Shown: one piece after another, positions 7,934-14,689 of the stretch
Layout: each line of letters starts with the position of its first letter
Numbering within the stretch: the first letter of the stretch is position 1
Source: a virus
Taxonomy: Duplodnaviria > Heunggongvirae > Uroviricota > Caudoviricetes
IMG/VR virus record: IMGVR_UViG_2706794664_000009
Length of the DNA stretch: 25,730 bases
Strand: one strand, 5' to 3'
Notes under the pieces: generated by a model
Database searches by the model: none
Seen by the model: the letters and a program-made list of their open reading frames with translations, nothing else
What the model was told of the DNA's origin: nothing
Made by a program: the position numbers and the translations under genes

Positions 7934-10761
7934 ATGACGGCAGAGTACATCAGGGACTGGCAACAACCGCGCCANNNNNNNNNNNNNNNNNNNNNNNNNN
8001 NNNNNNNNNNNNNNNNNNNNNNNNNNNNNNNNNNNNNNNNNNNNNNNNNNNNNNNNNNNNNNNNNNNNNNNNNNNNNNNNNNNNNNNNNNNNNNNNNNNN
8101 NNNNNNNNNNNNNNNNNNNNNNNNNNNNNNNNNNNNNNNNNNNNNNNNNNNNNNNNNNNNNNNNNNNNNNNNNNNNNNNNNNNNNNNNNNNNNNNNNNNN
8201 NNNNNNNNNNNNNNNNNNNNNNNNTGCGCCTGCTGCCGTCCTATCTGCGCGATCCGCTTATTCGCCACCTCTCCTTCCTGCGCAAAAAACAGGAAGCCGA
8301 TCGCCGGAAAGGCAAAAAGAGCTGGCAGGCGGAACGCTATGCACGCGGAACCCTGCGCAAAATATTCGAACGTCTGGATCGCACTGACGGACACTGGCTG
8401 ACACCGGGTTATCGCTCCCTTGCCGGACGTGAACGCCTGGACGATTTGCTTTACCTGCCGCAACTCAACAAACACCAGATACAGACGCTGGCCACCATGA
8501 CGGCGGCGATGTTCAGCAGCACCTTCGAAAAACTCTGCGATGGTTTTGGCGCGACTGATGGCGAGCTGACCATGGATGTAACGCTGAAGGCGTATCAGAT
8601 GCTGGCCCGCATGGCGTTACACTTACACGCCATGCCTCCGCATTATGACGCACTGACAACAGACAAAGACCGGAGGCACGAACCGGACACAGAACTGCTG
8701 CCGGGCGCAATCCTTCGCCTGACCTGTGCGGAATGGTGGAAACGCAAACTGTGGCTGTTACGTTGCGAGTGGAGAGAAGAACAACTTCGCGCCGCCTGTC
8801 TGGTTTCCAGAAAAACATCGCCCTATCTGAGCCAGGACGCGTTAAGCGAGTTTCGCGCACAGCGCGAGAAAACACGCGATTTCCTGAAAAGTTTCATGCT
8901 GGAAAATGAAGACGGGTTCACGATTGATCTCGAGACGGTGTATTACGCGGGAGTAAGTAACCCGGTTCACCGTAAGGCAGAAATGATGGCCACCATGAAG
9001 GGGCTGGAACTTCTGGCCGAAGCCCGTGGCGACAAAGCGGTGTTTCTGACTGTCACCTGCCCGTCAAAATACCACGCCACAACGGAGAACGGTCATCCGA
9101 ATCCCAAATGGAACGGGGCCACAATGCGCGACTCCAGCGATTACCTGGTTAACACGTTTTTTGCGACGGTCCGCAAAAAACTGAACCGCGACGGCCTGCG
9201 CTGGTATGGCATCCGCACGGCGGAGCCTCACCATGACGGCACCGTGCACTGGCATATGATGGTCTTTGCTCATCCGGAAGAAATCGACACCATTGTGTCC
9301 CACACCCGCGATATTGCCATTCAGGAAGATCGTCACGAGCTGGGCGATGACATAACTCCGCGCTTTAAGGCGGAGTATGTAGACGGCTCAAAAGGCACGC
9401 CAACCAGCTACATCGCCACCTACATCGGGAAAAACCTGGACAGCCGCGCCGTGGATGGCATCGACCCGAAAACGGGCAAGCCACGCGTTGACCACGAAAC
9501 CGGAAAATCAATGGCCGAGAGCGTGGAACGCGCCATCGGCTGGGCGCGCCTTCACCGGGTCCGCCAGTTCCAGTTCTTTGGCATCCCCTCCCGCCAGGTA
9601 TGGCGTGAACTGCGCCGCCTTGCCAGCCAGATGGCACGCAACCCGGAAAGCCCGCAACGGCTGAAGGATGACGCAATGGATGCGGTTCTTGCCGCCGCTG
9701 ATGCCGGATGTTTTGCCACCTACATAGAGAAACAGGGCGGCGTACTTGTTCCACGCAAAGACTACCTGATTCGCACCGCCTACGACCTCGCCGATGAGCT
9801 GAACGATTACGGCGAACAGAGCGTACAGATTTACGGGATCTGGTCACCACTCATCGGGGAATCCTCCCGTGTGTGCACGCATCCGGATAACTGGAAGCTG
9901 GTAAGACGCAAACCGGAAGCGGAAGACAGCGCCCGCGAAAATGGTTTTGACCTTCAGGGCGGCCCTGCCGCCCCTTGGACTCGTGGCAATAACTGTCCCC
10001 GTGTACAGGAAACGGACAACAACGGGACAGAACAGCCGGAAGAACGGCCAGCACCGTGGCCGCAGCTCCCTGACGGCGTTGATGTGGATGAATGGATGCG
10101 CTCACTGAAACGGCACGAACGCCGGGCGCTGATGCGTTCGCTTCGTGACAAACAGGCAAAAAACAGCAGTGATGAAATGCAGAGCTGGACACAGAGCCGC
10201 AAACAGCAGCGGCCTTTGCCTGATAACCACGAATTACTCGCTAAAGAATGGCGGGAGTCTGCTGAATCTCTCGGCCTGCATATCGGTGAACAACAGATGC
10301 AGCACCTGTTACGGGGCGGCAGTCTGTACGTTGACGGCAGCATCATTGCACCGCAGGGATTTGAAATTGTACGCAAACCGGATACCCGCCCGGACAGCCG
10401 AATCACGCAGCTCTGGCAGCGCCTGAGCCGTAATCATGGCGTAAGCAGCACGGAGATCCGCCATAACCCGGTCGCCAGCTATCTGACACAGCTGGGGGCA
10501 TCAGACCCTGAAGCCGCCGCACGCCTGGCATCCACACTTCAGCAGGACCAGAACACCATGAAAACACCCGTTACCGTGCTTTCTGACATGCTGCGCGCCA
10601 TCCGCGACGCAGAGCACGCACAGAGAATCAGTGAAACCACTGAACGCGCCCGCCGCAAAGCAGACCTGCTGCGGGGTGGCCTGACCAGTGGAAACAAAAA
10701 ACAGACAGAAACGGGACTCACGAATCCCGTAAATGAGCAAAAAACGCGCAGCGATATATGA
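7934..10761 (+). CDS. A: P2 gpA-type rolling-circle replication initiator (interrupted by masked run 7975-8224)
   Basis: Long frame 8227-10761 carries an HUH motif (VHWHMMVFAH) and a catalytic Tyr pair (SYIATYIGKN, YxxxY as in phiX174 gpA and P2 A). Likely start is ATG 7934; the frame on either side of the gap differs by 1, read as gap-length imprecision. Confidence 0.85.
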
Positions 10762-10803
10762 AGCGCGCACAAAACAGGCAAAAACGGGATTTCAGAATCC
10801 CGT
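10711..10803. promoter_or_regulatory. Two palindromic 20-bp repeats upstream of the parM-like gene (candidate operator or centromere-like site)
   Basis: acgggactcacgaatcccgt (10711-10730) and acgggatttcagaatcccgt (10784-10803), each an inverted repeat ACGGGAy-N6-ATCCCGT with conserved flanks (aaACGGGA ... ATCCCGTAAA). Copy 1 lies in the last codons of gene A; copy 2 is 35 nt before the parM-like ATG. Confidence 0.4.
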
Positions 10804-10837
10804 AAACGATTAATTAATCAACATAAGGAAAAGCGAC

Positions 10838-11814
10838 ATGAAAATTTGTATCGACGACGGCTCCACCAACATCAAGCTGGCATGGACTGAGAACGGCGAA
10901 CGCCGCAACGCCATCAGCCCGAACAGCTTCAAGTCGGAATGGTCTGCGCCGTTCGGTGGCATGCAGCCCGCGAACTACATNNNNNNNNNNNNNNNNNNNN
11001 NNNNNNNNNNNNNNNNNNNNNNNNNNNNNNNNNNNNNNNNNNNNNNNNNNNNNNNNNNNNNNNNNNNNNNNNNNNNNNNNNNNNNNNNNNNNNNNNNNNN
11101 NNNNNNNNNNNNNNNNNNNNNNNNNNNNNNNNNNNNNNNNNNNNNNNNNNNNNNNNNNNNNNNNNNNNNNNNNNNNNNNNNNNNNNNNNNNNNNNNNNNN
11201 NNNNNNNNNNNNNNNNNNNNNNNNNNNNNNNNNNNNNNNNNNNNNACCAGAACGGCGAAGCATTCACTATCCGTAACGTGCGGGTTATGCCTGAATCCAT
11301 TCCGGCTGGCTTTAAGGCACTGGCTGACATGAGTCCGTTTGAATCCCTGCTGATTGTGGATTTGGGCGGAACCACGCTGGATGTGGCAAAGGTTCAGGGG
11401 CAACTGGCAGGTATCAGCCAGGTGTTTTGCGATCCACACGTAGGCGTTTCTCTGATGGCCGATGCCGTACTGTCGGTGATGGCCACTAACGGTATGCGCA
11501 CCAGTCACCACATCGCCAATACCATTATCGAACATCGCCATGATGAAGCCTGGCTGCGCCAGCACATCCACAATGACGCGCATTACGCCAGCCTGATGGC
11601 GGTTATTCGTGAAAAGGAAGAAACACTGAAACAACGCGTGATCCGCGCGCTGGCGGGTTTTTCGGGTTACGGGCGGGTGATGGTTGTCGGTGGAGGGGCG
11701 GAGATTGTGGCACCCGCTATCCGCGAAGCCTGCGGAGTTAATGCGACTTTCATCGCGGACGGGGTGCCACAGTTTGCTCTGGTTAATGGGCTGTACGCAA
11801 TGGACAAGGAGTAA
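10838..11814 (+). CDS. parM: ParM/StbA-like actin-type ATPase (interrupted by masked run 10981-11245)
   Basis: N-terminus MKICIDDGSTNIKLAW ... ISPNSFKSEW resembles plasmid R1 ParM as recalled. Downstream blocks also match (DLGGTTLD, GISQVFCDPHVGVSL, GFSGYGRVMVVGGGAEI, LVNGLYAM). Total span is about 325 codons versus about 320 aa for ParM. Confidence 0.8.
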
Positions 11815-11818
11815 ACCA

Positions 11819-12130
11819 ATGACGACACCAACCAGACGGATAAGTTTCTATCTGAAGCCTGCGGCCGTCAAGAACGAAAGCGAAGCATGCGCCTGGCTGG
11901 GCAGCCTTACACCAGAAGCCCGCAAAAGCGGCCAACGCGTGGCTTTTCTGGCCGGGCTGGCACTTCTGAAAATGAATCCAGCAGAGGCTTACCGACTGGC
12001 TGCATGGGCTGACGATGAGGCGTTATCGGTGACACAAACCAGGACAGAACGCCCCGTGCCACAGCCAGTACCAACCGCACAGATAACCAGTCAGATAGCA
12101 GGGAATATCCGGGCATTATTTCCTGAATGA
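11819..12130 (+). CDS. parR: ParR-like small DNA-binding protein (putative partition or operator adaptor)
   Basis: 103-aa ORF starting 5 nt after the parM-like stop, with AAGGAG upstream. Local resemblance to recalled R1 ParR (RISFYLKP; QRVAFLAGLALLKMNP versus NRAALTAGLALYRQDP; NIRALFPE versus NILRSLFPKE). Weaker evidence than for parM. Confidence 0.55.
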   Translation: MTTPTRRISFYLKPAAVKNESEACAWLGSLTPEARKSGQRVAFLAGLALLKMNPAEAYRLAAWADDEALSVTQTRTERPVPQPVPTAQITSQIAGNIRALFPE

Positions 12131-12190
12131 CGAATTTGACGGCTTTTAATTTTATCGGGGTGCACTGTCGCCCCGCACGAGGAAAACACG

Positions 12191-12715
12191 ATGAAAAAAT
12201 ACGAATACATGCTAATGAAAGAAGCACTGCGGGCTGGTCTGGCTCCCTGTCCTGTATCCGTAGAAGCTGTTGTTGGGAACACGATTTTCCGAACGCTGCG
12301 AAATCGCGTATCCGTGAAGATGGTTCACCAACCACCCAAATCTACCAGCATGATCTATCTGCCGCTGCCCGAGGCTATCAAACTTATGCGTTCGCTGAAA
12401 TTTGCGATTTGGATGCAGACACAAATCAACAAAGCGGTGCAAAACACCTTCGTTAAGAGACTAATACCGGAGCTTGCTGCCAGATGTGCAAAATGTACCA
12501 GACCCGCACTTCAATTTGATCTGTCATTGATTCAACAAGCTACGGAGGCAGAACTGTACCGCCTGTCACCTATCCGTGATGCTCACACGGAAGCATCAGA
12601 AATGTTCCGGCTCATGTTTCAATTTAATTTTGCCGTTCGACGCACACGCGTTCAGGTCAATCGCATGATGCAGGAGCAGGAAGAGTTAACACAGTACAAA
12701 GGGGGCAGCCAGTGA
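12191..12715 (+). CDS. Hypothetical 174-aa protein; first gene of an accessory operon in the tin/old-equivalent locus
   Basis: GAGGA Shine-Dalgarno 8 nt upstream of the ATG. I recognise no motif or family. The region is AT-richer by eye than the phage structural genes. Confidence 0.55.
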   Translation: MKKYEYMLMKEALRAGLAPCPVSVEAVVGNTIFRTLRNRVSVKMVHQPPKSTSMIYLPLPEAIKLMRSLKFAIWMQTQINKAVQNTFVKRLIPELAARCAKCTRPALQFDLSLIQQATEAELYRLSPIRDAHTEASEMFRLMFQFNFAVRRTRVQVNRMMQEQEELTQYKGGSQ

Positions 12716-12951
12716 GTAATTCAGCACGACTACAGCTTGGTTTTTCACCGCTATCAAAAACCATCGTATTGGCAAAAATGCGTGACTTAGGAGACGGAAC
12801 AAAACGCCGCGTAGGAAATGATCGCGGTCGCGATGTAACCAACGAGGCCGCTCAACTCGTTTGGCATCTAGTCATGGCAGAAGGCGGTGAAATTAATTGG
12901 GAGCTGGATGATGGTTCTCGTATGATTTTGAGGGCCGAGAAGAGTAAATAG
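12712..12951 (+). CDS. Hypothetical 79-aa protein, translationally coupled to the upstream gene
   Basis: GTG start overlaps the upstream TGA (GTGA) and a G-rich stretch precedes it. No recognisable motif. Confidence 0.4.
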   Translation: MSNSARLQLGFSPLSKTIVLAKMRDLGDGTKRRVGNDRGRDVTNEAAQLVWHLVMAEGGEINWELDDGSRMILRAEKSK

Positions 12952-12965
12952 CTCAAGGGGGATTA

Positions 12966-13151
12966 ATGCTAAATGATGATGAAGAAGAGCTGCTTATGCA
13001 GGAATGGTCGCTCGGTGATTATGATAATGGTGAAAATGGGTGCCCGCATTGTGGCCGTTATCGTTTATGTATCTGCCAGAATGGAAAACACAGATGTGAA
13101 AAGTGCAATTGGTCTCCGGAACTTAATGACTACGTGCCGATCGAGTGGTAG
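12966..13151 (+). CDS. Small zinc-finger protein (61 aa)
   Basis: Acidic N-terminus, then CPHCG ... CICQNGKHRCEKC, giving six Cys and one His. Starts 14 nt after the upstream gene and is the last gene before the cos region. Confidence 0.45.
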   Translation: MLNDDEEELLMQEWSLGDYDNGENGCPHCGRYRLCICQNGKHRCEKCNWSPELNDYVPIEW

Positions 13152-13642
13152 AGGTAAGTCACACTAGGTGTTTTTTAGTTGATTTTATAAATGCACAATA
13201 GTGCACAAATTTGCACAATTTTTTTGAACGACTTTTTGCCCTTCCGGCCCGCGTGGCGGCTGGATCCGTCAAGGATCCGTGCATGCACAAAAAAACGCGT
13301 TTTTTCTGCGCGCAGGTGACGGGGGAACAGCCCGCGTTTCAGGGGGTAAATAGCATTCCCTGAACGATGTCGCAGAGATACAACAGAATGGCTGTATTTC
13401 TCACGCTGAGCGTGAAAAAGACGTGAGGGCTTTTGATTTGATGGGGTGAAAGGTAAGGCCGTCAAAATCGCACTGAGACGGCGAGAATATGCAGTCAACG
13501 AGGTGGGATTGCGTAAGAGTCTGACTGTCGATGATGGCAATCAGCAGGAAAGCGTCGTGAAATTATCTGACTGATACAGGAGCTGGAGAGTCGGGGCATA
13601 AATTTTTTATGCCCCGGCGAAGCAGCAGACAAGCGAAGCGCG
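13152..13642. other. Non-coding region in the P2 cos position, between the accessory locus and gene Q
   Basis: About 490 bp without a convincing ORF. Contains three TGCACAA(T) repeats (13190-13220), a perfect palindrome AAAAAAACGCGTTTTTT (about 13290-13307), a GGATCCGT direct repeat, GC-rich segments loosely like the P2/186 cos core, and a strong hairpin near 13590-13612. Exact cos ends were not identified. Confidence 0.4.
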
Positions 13643-14689
13643 TCAGGATGTGGGCTGGGTGTCTAACAGTGCGTAAGGGTTAAAGCGGATCACCTCTTCG
13701 CCAAGCCAGTCATTGATGTGCTTCATGGCCTCCATGACGGGCATCAGCTCGTTAATTGCGTAAACCCGCGCGGCCTTCTCCACATCACCAAACGCACTTT
13801 TTTCGCCCGGCATCGCCCCCATCAGTTGCGGCGGAACGCGGTGCGCAGCCAGCACATCATCACGGGATGCCGCCTTAACATTCATGAACTCATCCTTTGC
13901 GGTGATCTGCTGGAACGGCAAAATTTGCACCCCCTCTTTGCCCCCGTTGGGCGCATGAATGAGCACGTTTTTAAACGCACCACCACCACGTGCCCCCTGT
14001 AGCGTTTCTTTCAGGGAGTCCATGCTTTCGCGGTTTACCTGCGCTGCACCGATGTAGATGATGCACCCGGCGTGGGATCCGTTGTCGTAGTACAGTTTTC
14101 TGAACATGTCCGCCGAATGAGAAAGGCTGGCCGAGAGTAATGCGCCAAGATATTCCGGCATGCCGTAGATTTCCTGGTTAATATCCGGATTCATCAGGTG
14201 GCACACTTTGCCAGGACGAAACTGAAACGCATCCTTGCCATCCTGCACATACCACCATGATTCAAGATCGCTTCCGCGTCGCATGTATTTCGCCAGGGCG
14301 TGCCGTAATTTAAGCGGTTCGCCGAGCATATTGCTCCGAAGCTCAAGGAATGCGTTACCGAACACAAACCAGTCCAGCGCCAGCGCCGAGAAATCCTGCC
14401 GGGAAAGCAGCGGGTGCGGAATATAGCAGCCGAGCAATACATTGCGCTTAAAGTAAAGCGCAGACTGATGCCAGGACGTTTGCCGGGCAGCTCTTGCCAG
14501 ACCGTACCAGTCCACCGGGGTTTCATACCACCGCCCGTTATCAGCACAGTACATATTGTCCAGCAGGTCATGCCCGGTCAGGCGGTAAGGACCATCAAAT
14601 GTGAATGCACTGAGCGACGATTCTTTCCTGAGCGCATCAGCGAGATCAATGCGTGAACTCATGCGCACTTTTTTATTTTTTCTGCTCAT
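13643..14689 (-). CDS. Q: Portal protein (P2 gpQ homolog)
   Basis: 348-aa ORF, size and position as P2 gpQ (about 344 aa), downstream of and 1-nt overlapping the terminase gene, adjacent to the cos region. Confidence 0.9.
   Translation of the reverse strand: MSRKNKKVRMSSRIDLADALRKESSLSAFTFDGPYRLTGHDLLDNMYCADNGRWYETPVDWYGLARAARQTSWHQSALYFKRNVLLGCYIPHPLLSRQDFSALALDWFVFGNAFLELRSNMLGEPLKLRHALAKYMRRGSDLESWWYVQDGKDAFQFRPGKVCHLMNPDINQEIYGMPEYLGALLSASLSHSADMFRKLYYDNGSHAGCIIYIGAAQVNRESMDSLKETLQGARGGGAFKNVLIHAPNGGKEGVQILPFQQITAKDEFMNVKAASRDDVLAAHRVPPQLMGAMPGEKSAFGDVEKAARVYAINELMPVMEAMKHINDWLGEEVIRFNPYALLDTQPTS

What the first reader, a model, noticed from the sequence alone, without database searches (positions are those of the whole stretch)
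10711..10803. Paired palindromic 20-bp elements immediately upstream of the parM-like gene
Two near-identical inverted repeats (ACGGGAy-N6-ATCCCGT with conserved flanks) lie 73 bp apart, the first overlapping the end of gene A and the second 35 bp before the parM-like start. In R1-type parMRC loci the centromere and promoter region upstream of parM consists of repeats bound by ParR. These could be the equivalent site or an operator for the accessory operon. Neither is followed by a T-run, so they are unlikely to be simple terminators.
Basis: seen in the sequence. Interest (0 to 1): 0.5.

Follow-up and report, generated by a model that had tools for sequence, protein, structure and literature searches.

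The report
Likely centromere of a prophage ParMR system
Two 20-bp palindromes just upstream of a plasmid-type DNA-segregation operon (parM-parR) in a P2-like E. coli prophage are most likely the sites where the ParR adaptor protein grips the phage DNA; this is an expected part of such a system, but built in an unusual way.

Summary
Two copies of ACGGGA-N8-TCCCGT (10711-10730 and 10784-10803) sit inside two 42-nt direct-repeat blocks 73 bp apart, where chance predicts none. The window is a P88-like (Xuanwuvirus, P2 family) prophage. Downstream lie an R1-type ParM and a ParR from the same Pfam family as R1/R100 ParR.

- The two sites persist at the same spacing in Hafnia (73 bp) and Plesiomonas (72 bp) prophages. 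In Plesiomonas the hairpin potential is almost gone.
- In a lineage where parM is not next to gene A, the repeats stay with parM.
- Plasmid relatives carry two blocks of G[A/G]GAW units exactly 11 bp apart. Each phage palindrome is two such units (GGGAY / RTCCC) 11 bp apart, head to head.
- Arm mutations in about 200 loci are never compensated.

That reading fits the comparative data poorly, and so does an RNA hairpin. No consensus promoter lies between the blocks, so the operator role is uncertain. ParR binding is inferred, not shown.

Verdict: an uncharacterised member of a known kind. It has only two inverted unit pairs, and one is overprinted on the replication gene. Interest is moderate.

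The parts
10695..10736 (+). parC-like block 1: 42-nt repeat made of an A-rich 5' flank plus site 1. It lies entirely within the last codons of gene A.
   Evidence: Direct-repeat family D1. Polymorphism in the flank is 0.010 per position across 108 unique relatives.
10711..10730 (.). Site 1: palindrome ACGGGACTCACGAATCCCGT. It consists of two 5-bp units, GGGAC (10713-10717) and ATCCC (10724-10728), 11 bp start to start, head to head.
   Evidence: The most common allele in relatives is the perfect ACGGGATT-CACA-AATCCCGT.
10737..10767 (+). 31-bp core between the blocks. It holds the gene A stop codon (TGA, 10759-10761). No consensus sigma-70 promoter was found here, unlike the core in plasmid relatives.
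   Evidence: For contrast, the Salmonella plasmid relative has TTGATA-16-TATAAT in its core.
10768..10809 (+). parC-like block 2: 42-nt repeat, non-coding.
   Evidence: Flank polymorphism is 0.025 against 0.046 for the core.
10784..10803 (.). Site 2: palindrome ACGGGATTTCAGAATCCCGT, with units GGGAT (10786-10790) and ATCCC (10797-10801) 11 bp apart. It ends 34 nt before the parM start.
10825..10829 (+). Shine-Dalgarno sequence AAGGA of parM. The leader CATAAGGA is shared with R100 parM.
   Evidence: Read directly.
10838..11814 (+). parM, an actin-like segregation ATPase. It is interrupted by a masked N run at 10981-11245.
   Evidence: The P88 orthologue matches Pfam StbA_N at 1.8e-82 and ParM_N at 1.3e-68. 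It matches R1 ParM structures at E = 9e-93. The window N-terminus is identical to the P88 protein except one residue.
11819..12130 (+). parR, a 103-aa centromere-binding adaptor. It has an invariant N-terminal RRISFYLKP (the presumed RHH strand), a variable linker and a conserved C-terminal tail NIRALFPE.
   Evidence: Pfam PF10784 at 2e-23. hhalign against R100 ParR gives probability 97.5%. The profile hits pB171 ParR, PDB 2JD3, at E = 1e-3. Alignment.
7939..10761 (+). Gene A (replication endonuclease), whose 3' end is overprinted on block 1. The start is inferred from the 2823-nt P88 gene, and a masked run at 7975-8224 lies inside it.
   Evidence: Phage_GPA, 1.2e-128.

Best explanation
The two 42-nt blocks (10695-10736 and 10768-10809), each centred on a 20-bp palindrome, are most likely the parC-type centromere of the prophage's R1-family ParMR partition system. 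Proposed mechanism, inferred by homology with R1, pB171 and pSK41: each palindrome is two 5-bp recognition units (GGGAY and its complement RTCCC) one helical turn apart. Each unit would be bound by one ribbon-helix-helix ParR dimer through the invariant N-terminal strand RRISFYL. The A-rich 5' flank (AAACAGR, 10-11 bp upstream of AAACGGG) may be a third, degenerate unit. The two blocks lie 73 bp apart, about 7 helical turns, so they face the same side of the DNA and could be gathered into one ParR-DNA complex. The conserved ParR C-terminal tails (NIRALFPE) would then capture the ends of ParM filaments, which push copies of the circular phage DNA apart. What is shown: the sequence anatomy, its conservation, the homology of the proteins and the family-wide repeat grammar. 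What is inferred: ParR binding, segregation activity and any transcriptional role. Because no consensus promoter lies in the core, parMR is probably transcribed mainly by read-through from the early operon through gene A. ParR bound at site 2 may still modulate that transcription.
For: (1) The proteins are the right ones. ParM matches R1 ParM at E = 9e-93. ParR is in PF10784, as is R100 ParR, with hhalign probability 97.5% and a hit to pB171 ParR 2JD3. (2) The sites are in the right position. They are the only significant repeats in the 76-nt gap and gene A tail upstream of parM, and there are only two in the whole P88 genome. (3) The arrangement is conserved. Hafnia prophages (ParR 74% identical) keep the core GGGATT-N4-AATCCC twice, 73 bp apart. 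A Plesiomonas prophage (ParM 63% identical) keeps GGGACA-N4-WAACCC twice, 72 bp apart. (4) The sites are linked to parMR, not to gene A. In Enterobacter L098 a methylase gene and a small ORF separate A from parM. A 20-bp repeat pair beginning GGGAAC sits before parM, and none sits after A. In L032 a different gene A C-terminus is joined exactly 5' of block 1, and both sites are kept. (5) The repeat grammar is shared across the family. In 23 plasmid or other relatives, G[AG]GA[ATC] occurs 115 times in the 170 nt upstream of parM, against 30 expected. Neighbouring motifs are exactly 11 bp apart 42 times, against 0.2 expected. The phage arms are the same motif with the same 11-bp spacing. Block spacings across the family are 60-63, 72-74, 82-83 and 94 bp (R100), which is about 6 to 9 helical turns. 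(6) The recognition strand of ParR is invariant even in variants only 52% identical overall, and the GGGA/TCCC cores are likewise nearly invariant. (7) There is precedent for type II centromeres with few direct and inverted repeats: srpC of SXT/R391, which SrpR binds (PMC4489591).
Against: No binding or stability data exist. The site differs from the textbook parC, which has ten direct 11-bp iterons flanking the promoter (review PMC5016525). Here there are only two inverted unit pairs and no consensus promoter in the core. Both palindromes also score as minus-strand terminator-like hairpins (about -10 kcal/mol), so a second or alternative role is not excluded. The relatives used are not independent samples. 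The motif G[AG]GAW was defined after looking at the data.
Confidence: 0.75

Rival explanations
1. The hairpins are a tandem pair of Rho-independent terminators for minus-strand (antisense) transcription. They would protect gene A and the early operon from transcripts coming from leftward cargo genes or from late-operon read-through.
For: On the minus strand each forms an 8-bp stem with a 4-nt loop (-10.2 kcal/mol) followed by UUUCUGUCUGUU or UUUUUGCCUGUU. Hafnia copies are flagged in the same way. In P2 the cargo genes tin and old in the equivalent region are transcribed leftward toward gene A. Some relatives (705R2, Shae_phiSM) have minus-strand cargo genes after parR.
Against: In this window every plausible gene between the sites and the portal gene is on the + strand. 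Portal gene Q has its own strong hairpin at 13592-13617. A terminator 1.3 kb or more beyond the nearest possible minus-strand gene, and inside another operon, would be odd. Plesiomonas keeps both sites at the same spacing but without usable hairpins or T tails (site 1 z = -0.15). Arm changes in about 200 loci are never compensated: AATCCT in about 40 loci, AAACCC with AACCCC in both sites of L019 and L253, and ACAGGA in both sites of L032. The arms match the family's ParR unit motif and spacing.
Confidence: 0.1
2. They are plus-strand RNA stem-loops in the A-parM transcript. Possible roles are a processing or RNase III site, a 3' stabiliser of the gene A message, or a translational control element for parM.
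For: The + strand RNA folds into the same hairpins (-9.0 and -10.7 kcal/mol, z = -2.9 and -3.7). The region is almost certainly transcribed with the early operon. Variation is concentrated in the 'loop' positions.
Against: There is no Rfam match even at E = 1. No compensatory changes occur among 111 unique sequences. Hairpin potential is lost in Plesiomonas while the sequence frame GGGA-N8-CCC is kept. Relatives carry direct iterons, which cannot form hairpins, at the homologous place.
Confidence: 0.07
3. They are binding sites for a different protein or belong to replication. Candidates are gene A protein (origin or terminus), the phage Cox or C regulators, or a host factor.
For: Site 1 lies inside gene A. 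P2-type origins lie inside gene A. Palindromes are generic protein-binding sites.
Against: The homologue of the P2 ori nick site is about 780 bp upstream, at roughly 9948-9997. The sites stay with parMR when the gene A C-terminus is exchanged (L032). In the Enterobacter lineage, repeats sit before parM and not after A. No further copies occur near other phage promoters in P88.
Confidence: 0.05

Closest known systems
parC of plasmid R1/R100 (type II ParMRC partition locus)
   Same: The protein partners are homologous: ParM at E = 9e-93, and ParR in the same Pfam family PF10784 with hhalign probability 97.5%. The site lies immediately upstream of parM. There are two repeat blocks separated by a core, with an 11-bp unit period and a block spacing that is a whole number of helical turns (R100 94 bp, here 73 bp). 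The parM leader CATAAGGA is shared. The phage right arm plus flank, CCCGTAAACGA, matches the R100 unit CCCAAAAACAA at 8 of 11 positions, which is a weak resemblance read.
   Different: R1/R100 has about ten direct 11-bp iterons in two arrays flanking the parMR promoter. Here each block holds one head-to-head unit pair, plus perhaps one degenerate unit. No consensus promoter lies in the core. Block 1 and the core are overprinted by the end of the replication gene. The element is an integrating P2-like prophage, not a plasmid.
Plasmid-borne parMR loci of Enterobacterales with GAGAW iterons (for example Salmonella plasmid contig L104 and Pantoea L100)
   Same: ParM is about 50% identical. The ParR N-terminus is RRKIxFYxxP, against RRISFYLKP here. 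There are two 34-35-nt blocks 72-73 bp apart, units 11 bp apart, and a unit core that differs by one base (GAGAW against GGGAY).
   Different: Units are in direct orientation, three per block. A strong promoter, TTGATA-16-TATAAT, lies in the core. These loci are themselves uncharacterised, and their role is inferred from R1.
srpMRC of SXT/R391 integrative conjugative elements (Carraro et al. 2015, PMC4489591)
   Same: It is a type II partition system on a chromosomally integrating element. Its centromere upstream of the actin-like gene consists of only four short repeats in direct and inverted orientation. SrpR binds it in EMSA, and it stabilises the excised circular form.
   Different: SrpR has no detectable similarity to ParR, and the repeat sequences are unrelated 13-mers. 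That element is an ICE rather than a phage.
AlpAC of the Corynebacterium glutamicum prophage CGP3 (Donovan et al. 2015, PMC4446434)
   Same: An integrated prophage encodes an actin-like protein, and the abstract describes this protein as required for efficient viral DNA replication.
   Different: The actin-like family and host phylum are distant. I read only the title and abstract, and made no sequence comparison.

Membership tests
Type II (R1-type ParMRC) partition locus: parC centromere | An actin-like ParM ATPase is encoded immediately downstream of the site. | tested here: met
   Pfam StbA_N at 1.8e-82 and ParM_N at 1.3e-68. R1 ParM structures match at E = 9e-93.
Type II (R1-type ParMRC) partition locus: parC centromere | A small ParR adaptor follows parM, with an N-terminal ribbon-helix-helix DNA-binding domain and a C-terminal ParM-binding tail. 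| tested here: met
   PF10784 at 2e-23, the same family as R100 ParR. hhalign probability 97.5%. pB171 ParR 2JD3 at E = 1e-3. Conserved N-terminal strand and C-terminal NIRALFPE. The fold itself was not confirmed: the AlphaFold monomer had pLDDT 54.8.
Type II (R1-type ParMRC) partition locus: parC centromere | Repeated short units lie upstream of parM, phased at about one helical turn, in one or two blocks. | tested here: met
   Two 42-nt blocks lie 73 bp apart. Units GGGAY and RTCCC are 11 bp apart. Relatives show the same grammar, with 42 spacings of exactly 11 bp against 0.2 expected.
Type II (R1-type ParMRC) partition locus: parC centromere | Multiple direct (tandem) iterons, as in R1 (ten 11-bp units) or pSK41. 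| tested here: not met
   There is only one inverted unit pair per block, and the possible third unit is degenerate. Inverted blocks do occur in relatives (L170, L097).
Type II (R1-type ParMRC) partition locus: parC centromere | The parMR promoter is embedded in or between the repeats and is repressed by ParR. | tested here: inconclusive
   The scan found no sigma-70 consensus in 10300-13700 apart from one site at 12897, and none in Hafnia. Only weak candidates are visible by eye: TGAGCA-N15-TATATG in the core, and TTCAGA-N16-ATTAAT overlapping site 2. A plasmid relative does have an 11/12 promoter in its core.
Type II (R1-type ParMRC) partition locus: parC centromere | ParR binds the repeats specifically. 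The site acts in cis to stabilise a replicon and exerts incompatibility. | not testable with these tools
   This needs EMSA or footprinting, plasmid-loss assays and incompatibility assays.
Rho-independent (intrinsic) terminator | A G+C-rich hairpin is followed directly by a U-tract on the transcribed strand. | tested here: inconclusive
   Not met on the + strand. Met by pattern on the minus strand for both sites, although the tails are interrupted (UUUCUGUCUG and UUUUUGCCUG).
Rho-independent (intrinsic) terminator | The hairpin is maintained in relatives through compensatory changes, and there is a transcription unit to terminate. | tested here: not met
   No compensated arm changes occur in 111 unique sequences. 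Plesiomonas site 1 has z = -0.15. This window has no minus-strand gene upstream within 2.8 kb.
P2-type origin of replication (gene A nick site) | Homology to the P2 ori nick sequence inside gene A. | tested here: not met
   The P2 ori region aligns to window positions about 9948-9997, not to the palindromes.
Any curated RNA family (Rfam 15) | A covariance-model match. | tested here: not met
   No match at E <= 1 in 10300-11000 on either strand.

The most novel reading that the evidence does not exclude
P88-like P2-family prophages are present in 1304 of 5426 complete E. coli genomes. They may carry a complete and active R1-type segregation machine whose centromere has been remodelled into two palindromes partly overprinted on the replication gene. 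That would imply a biologically important extrachromosomal phase for a phage family regarded as strictly integrative. Possibilities include plasmid-like maintenance, a carrier state after excision, or active positioning of replicating genomes. A 34.4-kb circular 'plasmid' record that is a whole phage of this type (NZ_CP148288.1) hints at such a phase.
Probability: 0.25. Interest if true: 0.6.

Novelty: new member of a known kind. Interest (0 to 1): 0.4.

Why it matters
This prophage module is very common, occurring in about a quarter of complete E. coli genomes. In the searched library I found no paper that analyses its parMR locus or its centromere. Pinning parC to two defined 20-bp palindromes gives a compact and directly testable target of about 115 bp. 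That target could be used to ask why an integrating P2-like phage keeps a plasmid segregation machine. It could also show how ParR recognition changes between direct iterons (GAGAW) and inverted units (GGGAY), and how a centromere can coexist with coding sequence. It is not a new principle, because a ParR site upstream of parM is what the R1 paradigm predicts.

Tried and rejected
(1) Looking for the same ParR subfamily on true plasmids. tblastn found only 7 records, mostly integrated prophages or misnamed chromosomes. The genome-contig scan gave only 3 loci, so the subfamily is narrow. I switched to ParM-based searches.

(2) Using the 52%-identical ParR variants as a test of co-evolution. This was uninformative, because their N-terminal 18 residues and the sites are unchanged.

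(3) Correlating minor site alleles with ParR N-terminal alleles. No pattern emerged.

(4) Searching for covariation in support of a hairpin. None was found. Variation sits in the central 4-6 nt and the outermost base.

(5) AlphaFold of the ParR monomer. Confidence was low (pLDDT 54.8), with the N-terminal strand disordered as expected for an obligate dimer. No fold search was run.

(6) NCBIfam gave no hit for ParR.

(7) A multiple alignment of phage, R100 and plasmid upstream regions is too diverged to prove positional homology of the blocks. Only the layout and the leader are comparable.

(8) The EMBO J 2007 ParR/parC paper (PMC2034672) is not held.

(9) L043 looked like a one-site variant but is an IS insertion just 5' of site 2.

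(10) The origin-of-replication idea was rejected by homology with the P2 ori.
Full report
**What the window is**

The region matches Escherichia phage P88 and other Xuanwuvirus (Peduoviridae, P2-like) phages at 96-99% identity.
- In P88 the gene order is replication endonuclease A (940 aa), ParM (319 aa), a 103-aa 'partition protein', small cargo genes, then portal Q and terminase P on the other strand.
- In the window, gene A ends at 10761, parM runs 10838-11814 and parR runs 11819-12130.
- The window has eight masked N runs, one of them inside parM.
- The same A-end/parM junction occurs in 1304 of 5426 complete E. coli genomes, almost always on the chromosome.

**Check of the observation**

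- ACGGGA-N8-TCCCGT occurs at 10711-10730 and 10784-10803 and nowhere else in the window, with 0 expected in shuffles.
- Only these two sites exist in the whole P88 genome at 2 mismatches or fewer.
- Each lies in a 42-nt direct repeat (10695-10736 and 10768-10809, 81% identical, 73 bp start to start).
- Site 1 is fully inside the gene A reading frame, whose stop is at 10759-10761. Site 2 ends 34 nt before the parM ATG.
On the minus strand both hairpins (-10.2 kcal/mol) are followed by T-rich tails, and the scan lists both as terminator-like.

**The neighbouring proteins**

- ParM matches Pfam StbA_N and ParM_N and matches R1 ParM crystal structures at E = 9e-93.
- The 103-aa protein is in PF10784 (Plasmid_stab_B), the same family as ParR of R100.
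- A profile of it aligns to R100 ParR with 97.5% probability over the N-terminal 62 residues. It also hits the pB171 ParR structure 2JD3.
- Across the subfamily the N-terminal RRISFYLKP and the C-terminal tail NIRALFPE are conserved, while the linker is highly variable. That is the ParR architecture: a DNA-binding RHH domain plus a ParM-binding tail, as described in the review PMC5016525.

So this is a genuine R1-family parMR pair, and a centromere is expected immediately upstream.

**Comparative evidence within prophages**

- Hafnia prophages (ParR 74% identical) keep two sites with the core GGGATT-N4-AATCCC, 73 bp apart. The outer AC...GT is not kept, and the gene A stop codon lies in the spacer of site 1.
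- A Plesiomonas P2-like prophage (ParM 63% identical) has GCGGGACAACAAAAACCC and GCGGGACAACACTAACCC 72 bp apart, at the same place relative to parM. It has almost no hairpin potential and no T tails on the minus strand. Fold z for site 1 is -0.15.
- In Serratia and Enterobacter prophages (ParM 54-58% identical, ParR 133-134 aa) the region upstream of parM carries a 19-20-bp inverted pair beginning GGGAAC / AGGAAC.
- In the Enterobacter locus, a methylase gene and a small ORF separate gene A from parM. The repeats sit before parM, and nothing similar follows gene A.
- In L032 a different gene A C-terminus is fused exactly 5' of block 1, and both sites are retained.

The repeats therefore belong to the parMR module and not to gene A.

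**Comparative evidence from plasmid and other relatives**

- A Salmonella plasmid contig and a Pantoea contig with roughly 50%-identical ParM and PF10784 ParR have two 34-35-nt blocks of three units, 72-73 bp start to start.
- The Salmonella one has an 11/12 sigma-70 promoter in the 39-bp core, which is the R1 layout.
- R100 itself has two arrays of 11-bp units (CCCAAAAACAA on the parM strand), 94 bp apart.
- In 23 non-phage relatives the motif G[AG]GA[ATC] occurs 115 times in the 170 nt upstream of parM, against 30 in shuffles. Successive motifs are exactly 11 bp apart 42 times, against 0.2 expected.
- Blocks occur in direct or inverted orientation, with spacings of 60-63, 72-74 or 82-83 bp. 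With R100's 94 bp, that is about 6, 7, 8 and 9 helical turns.

The phage palindromes fit this grammar exactly. GGGAY and RTCCC are the same 5-bp core with one base changed. They are 11 bp apart, with blocks 73 bp apart, and the proximal block ends about 35 nt before the start codon. The only real difference is that the two units of a block are head to head.

Two caveats apply. These relatives are not independent samples. I also chose the motif after inspecting the sequences.

**Population variation**

I examined 213 loci, giving 111 unique upstream sequences.
- Polymorphism is concentrated in the central 4-6 nt and the outermost base of the palindromes. The GGGA/TCCC cores and the 5' flanks are the least variable non-coding positions.
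- Arm changes are never compensated. AATCCT occurs in about 40 loci. L019 and L253 have AAACCC in site 1 and AACCCC in site 2. L032 has ACAGGA in both sites.
- The absence of compensation argues against selection for a stem. The parallel changes in both sites hint at gene conversion or a shared reader.
- No correlation with ParR N-terminal alleles was seen. The recognition strand is simply invariant, including in ParR variants only 52% identical overall.

**Rivals**

- A minus-strand terminator pair is the strongest rival, for three reasons. The pattern is there. In P2 the equivalent cargo genes tin and old are transcribed toward gene A. Some relatives have minus-strand cargo genes.
- Against it, this window has only + strand genes between the sites and portal gene Q, and Q has its own strong hairpin at 13592-13617. 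Plesiomonas lacks the hairpins and tails, and stems are not maintained by compensation.
- A plus-strand RNA element is disfavoured for the same reasons and by the lack of any Rfam match.
- An origin role is excluded by homology, because the P2 nick-site region aligns to about 9948-9997.

**What remains open**

- No consensus sigma-70 promoter lies in the core or around site 2. Only weak candidates are visible by eye.
- parMR is therefore probably expressed by read-through from the early operon.
- ParR binding, segregation activity and the biological purpose of a partition system in an integrating phage are all inferred.
- A circular 34.4-kb 'plasmid' record that is an entire phage of this type is a hint that an episomal form exists. 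It could equally be an assembly of excised or induced DNA.

**Comparison with known systems and novelty**

- The locus is a member of the R1/pB171 ParMRC family by its proteins.
- The cis site works, by inference, like parC. It departs from the textbook in three ways: inverted unit pairs instead of tandem iterons, no core promoter, and overprinting by gene A.
- Centromeres with few direct and inverted repeats on integrating elements are already known (srpC of SXT/R391, PMC4489591). Prophage-encoded actin-like systems are also known (CGP3 AlpC, PMC4446434).
- I found no paper on P88-like parMR or its centromere in the searched library.

I therefore rate it as a new, uncharacterised member of a known kind, with moderate interest.

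Noticed in passing
L015 (NZ_CP148288.1, whole record 34,461 bp, circular): A record deposited as an E. coli 'plasmid' is an entire P88-like phage genome, with gene A, parM, parR and terminase. It could be an episomal or excised form, which bears on why the phage keeps a partition system.
   Followed up: partly
window 10695-10761; L009 2919-2934; L096 2868-2897; L032 1397-1430: The gene A reading frame runs through parC block 1. In E. coli it stops 31 nt after site 1. In Hafnia the TGA is in the spacer of site 1. In Plesiomonas it stops just after block 1. L032 has an unrelated gene A C-terminus fused exactly at the 5' edge of block 1.
   Followed up: partly
window 9948-9997: This is the homologue of the P2 origin nick region (GCCGCCCCTTGGACTCGTGGCAATAACTGT), inside gene A and about 780 bp upstream of the palindromes.
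   Followed up: yes
window 13592-13617: A strong palindromic hairpin, CGGGGCATAAA-TTT-TTTATGCCCCG, lies immediately after the stop of portal gene Q (minus strand). It is probably the terminator between the convergent early/cargo and late P-Q transcription units.
   Followed up: no
window 10981-11245 (N run) within parM 10838-11814: parM spans 977 nt in the window but 960 nt in P88, so the reading frame does not carry across the masked run. The length of the N run is apparently not faithful to the masked sequence, or an indel is hidden there.
   Followed up: partly
window 12131-13151 versus L001 6278-7368, L002 5805-6323, L003 5801-8428: The cargo between parR and the portal gene differs among otherwise near-identical phages. 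The window has a 174-aa ORF with no Pfam hit, a DUF7446 protein and a 61-aa zinc-ribbon-like ORF. P88 has a ClpX-zinc-finger protein. 705R2 and Shae_phiSM have minus-strand genes. This is the position of tin and old in P2, a variable cargo spot.
   Followed up: partly
L043 768-1460: An IS-type transposase gene is inserted directly 5' of site 2. It removes block 1 and the gene A end but leaves site 2 and parM intact.
   Followed up: partly
L003 5403-5717 and about a dozen other loci: ParR exists in several allelic classes only about 52% identical overall, differing in the linker and second half. They sit behind 99%-identical parM genes and identical sites. The recombination or divergence boundary lies after ParR residue 18.
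   Followed up: partly
L267 34928-35068 (P88 genome): A hok/gef-family (MokW-like) host-killing toxin gene is annotated in P88. This is a second plasmid-type maintenance function on the same phage.
   Followed up: no
L268 25508-25700 (R100 parC) versus window 10797-10810: The phage right arm plus 3' flank, CCCGTAAACGA, matches the R100 iteron CCCAAAAACAA at 8 of 11 positions. The parM leaders share CATAAGGA. This is weak evidence of common descent of the cis region.
   Followed up: partly
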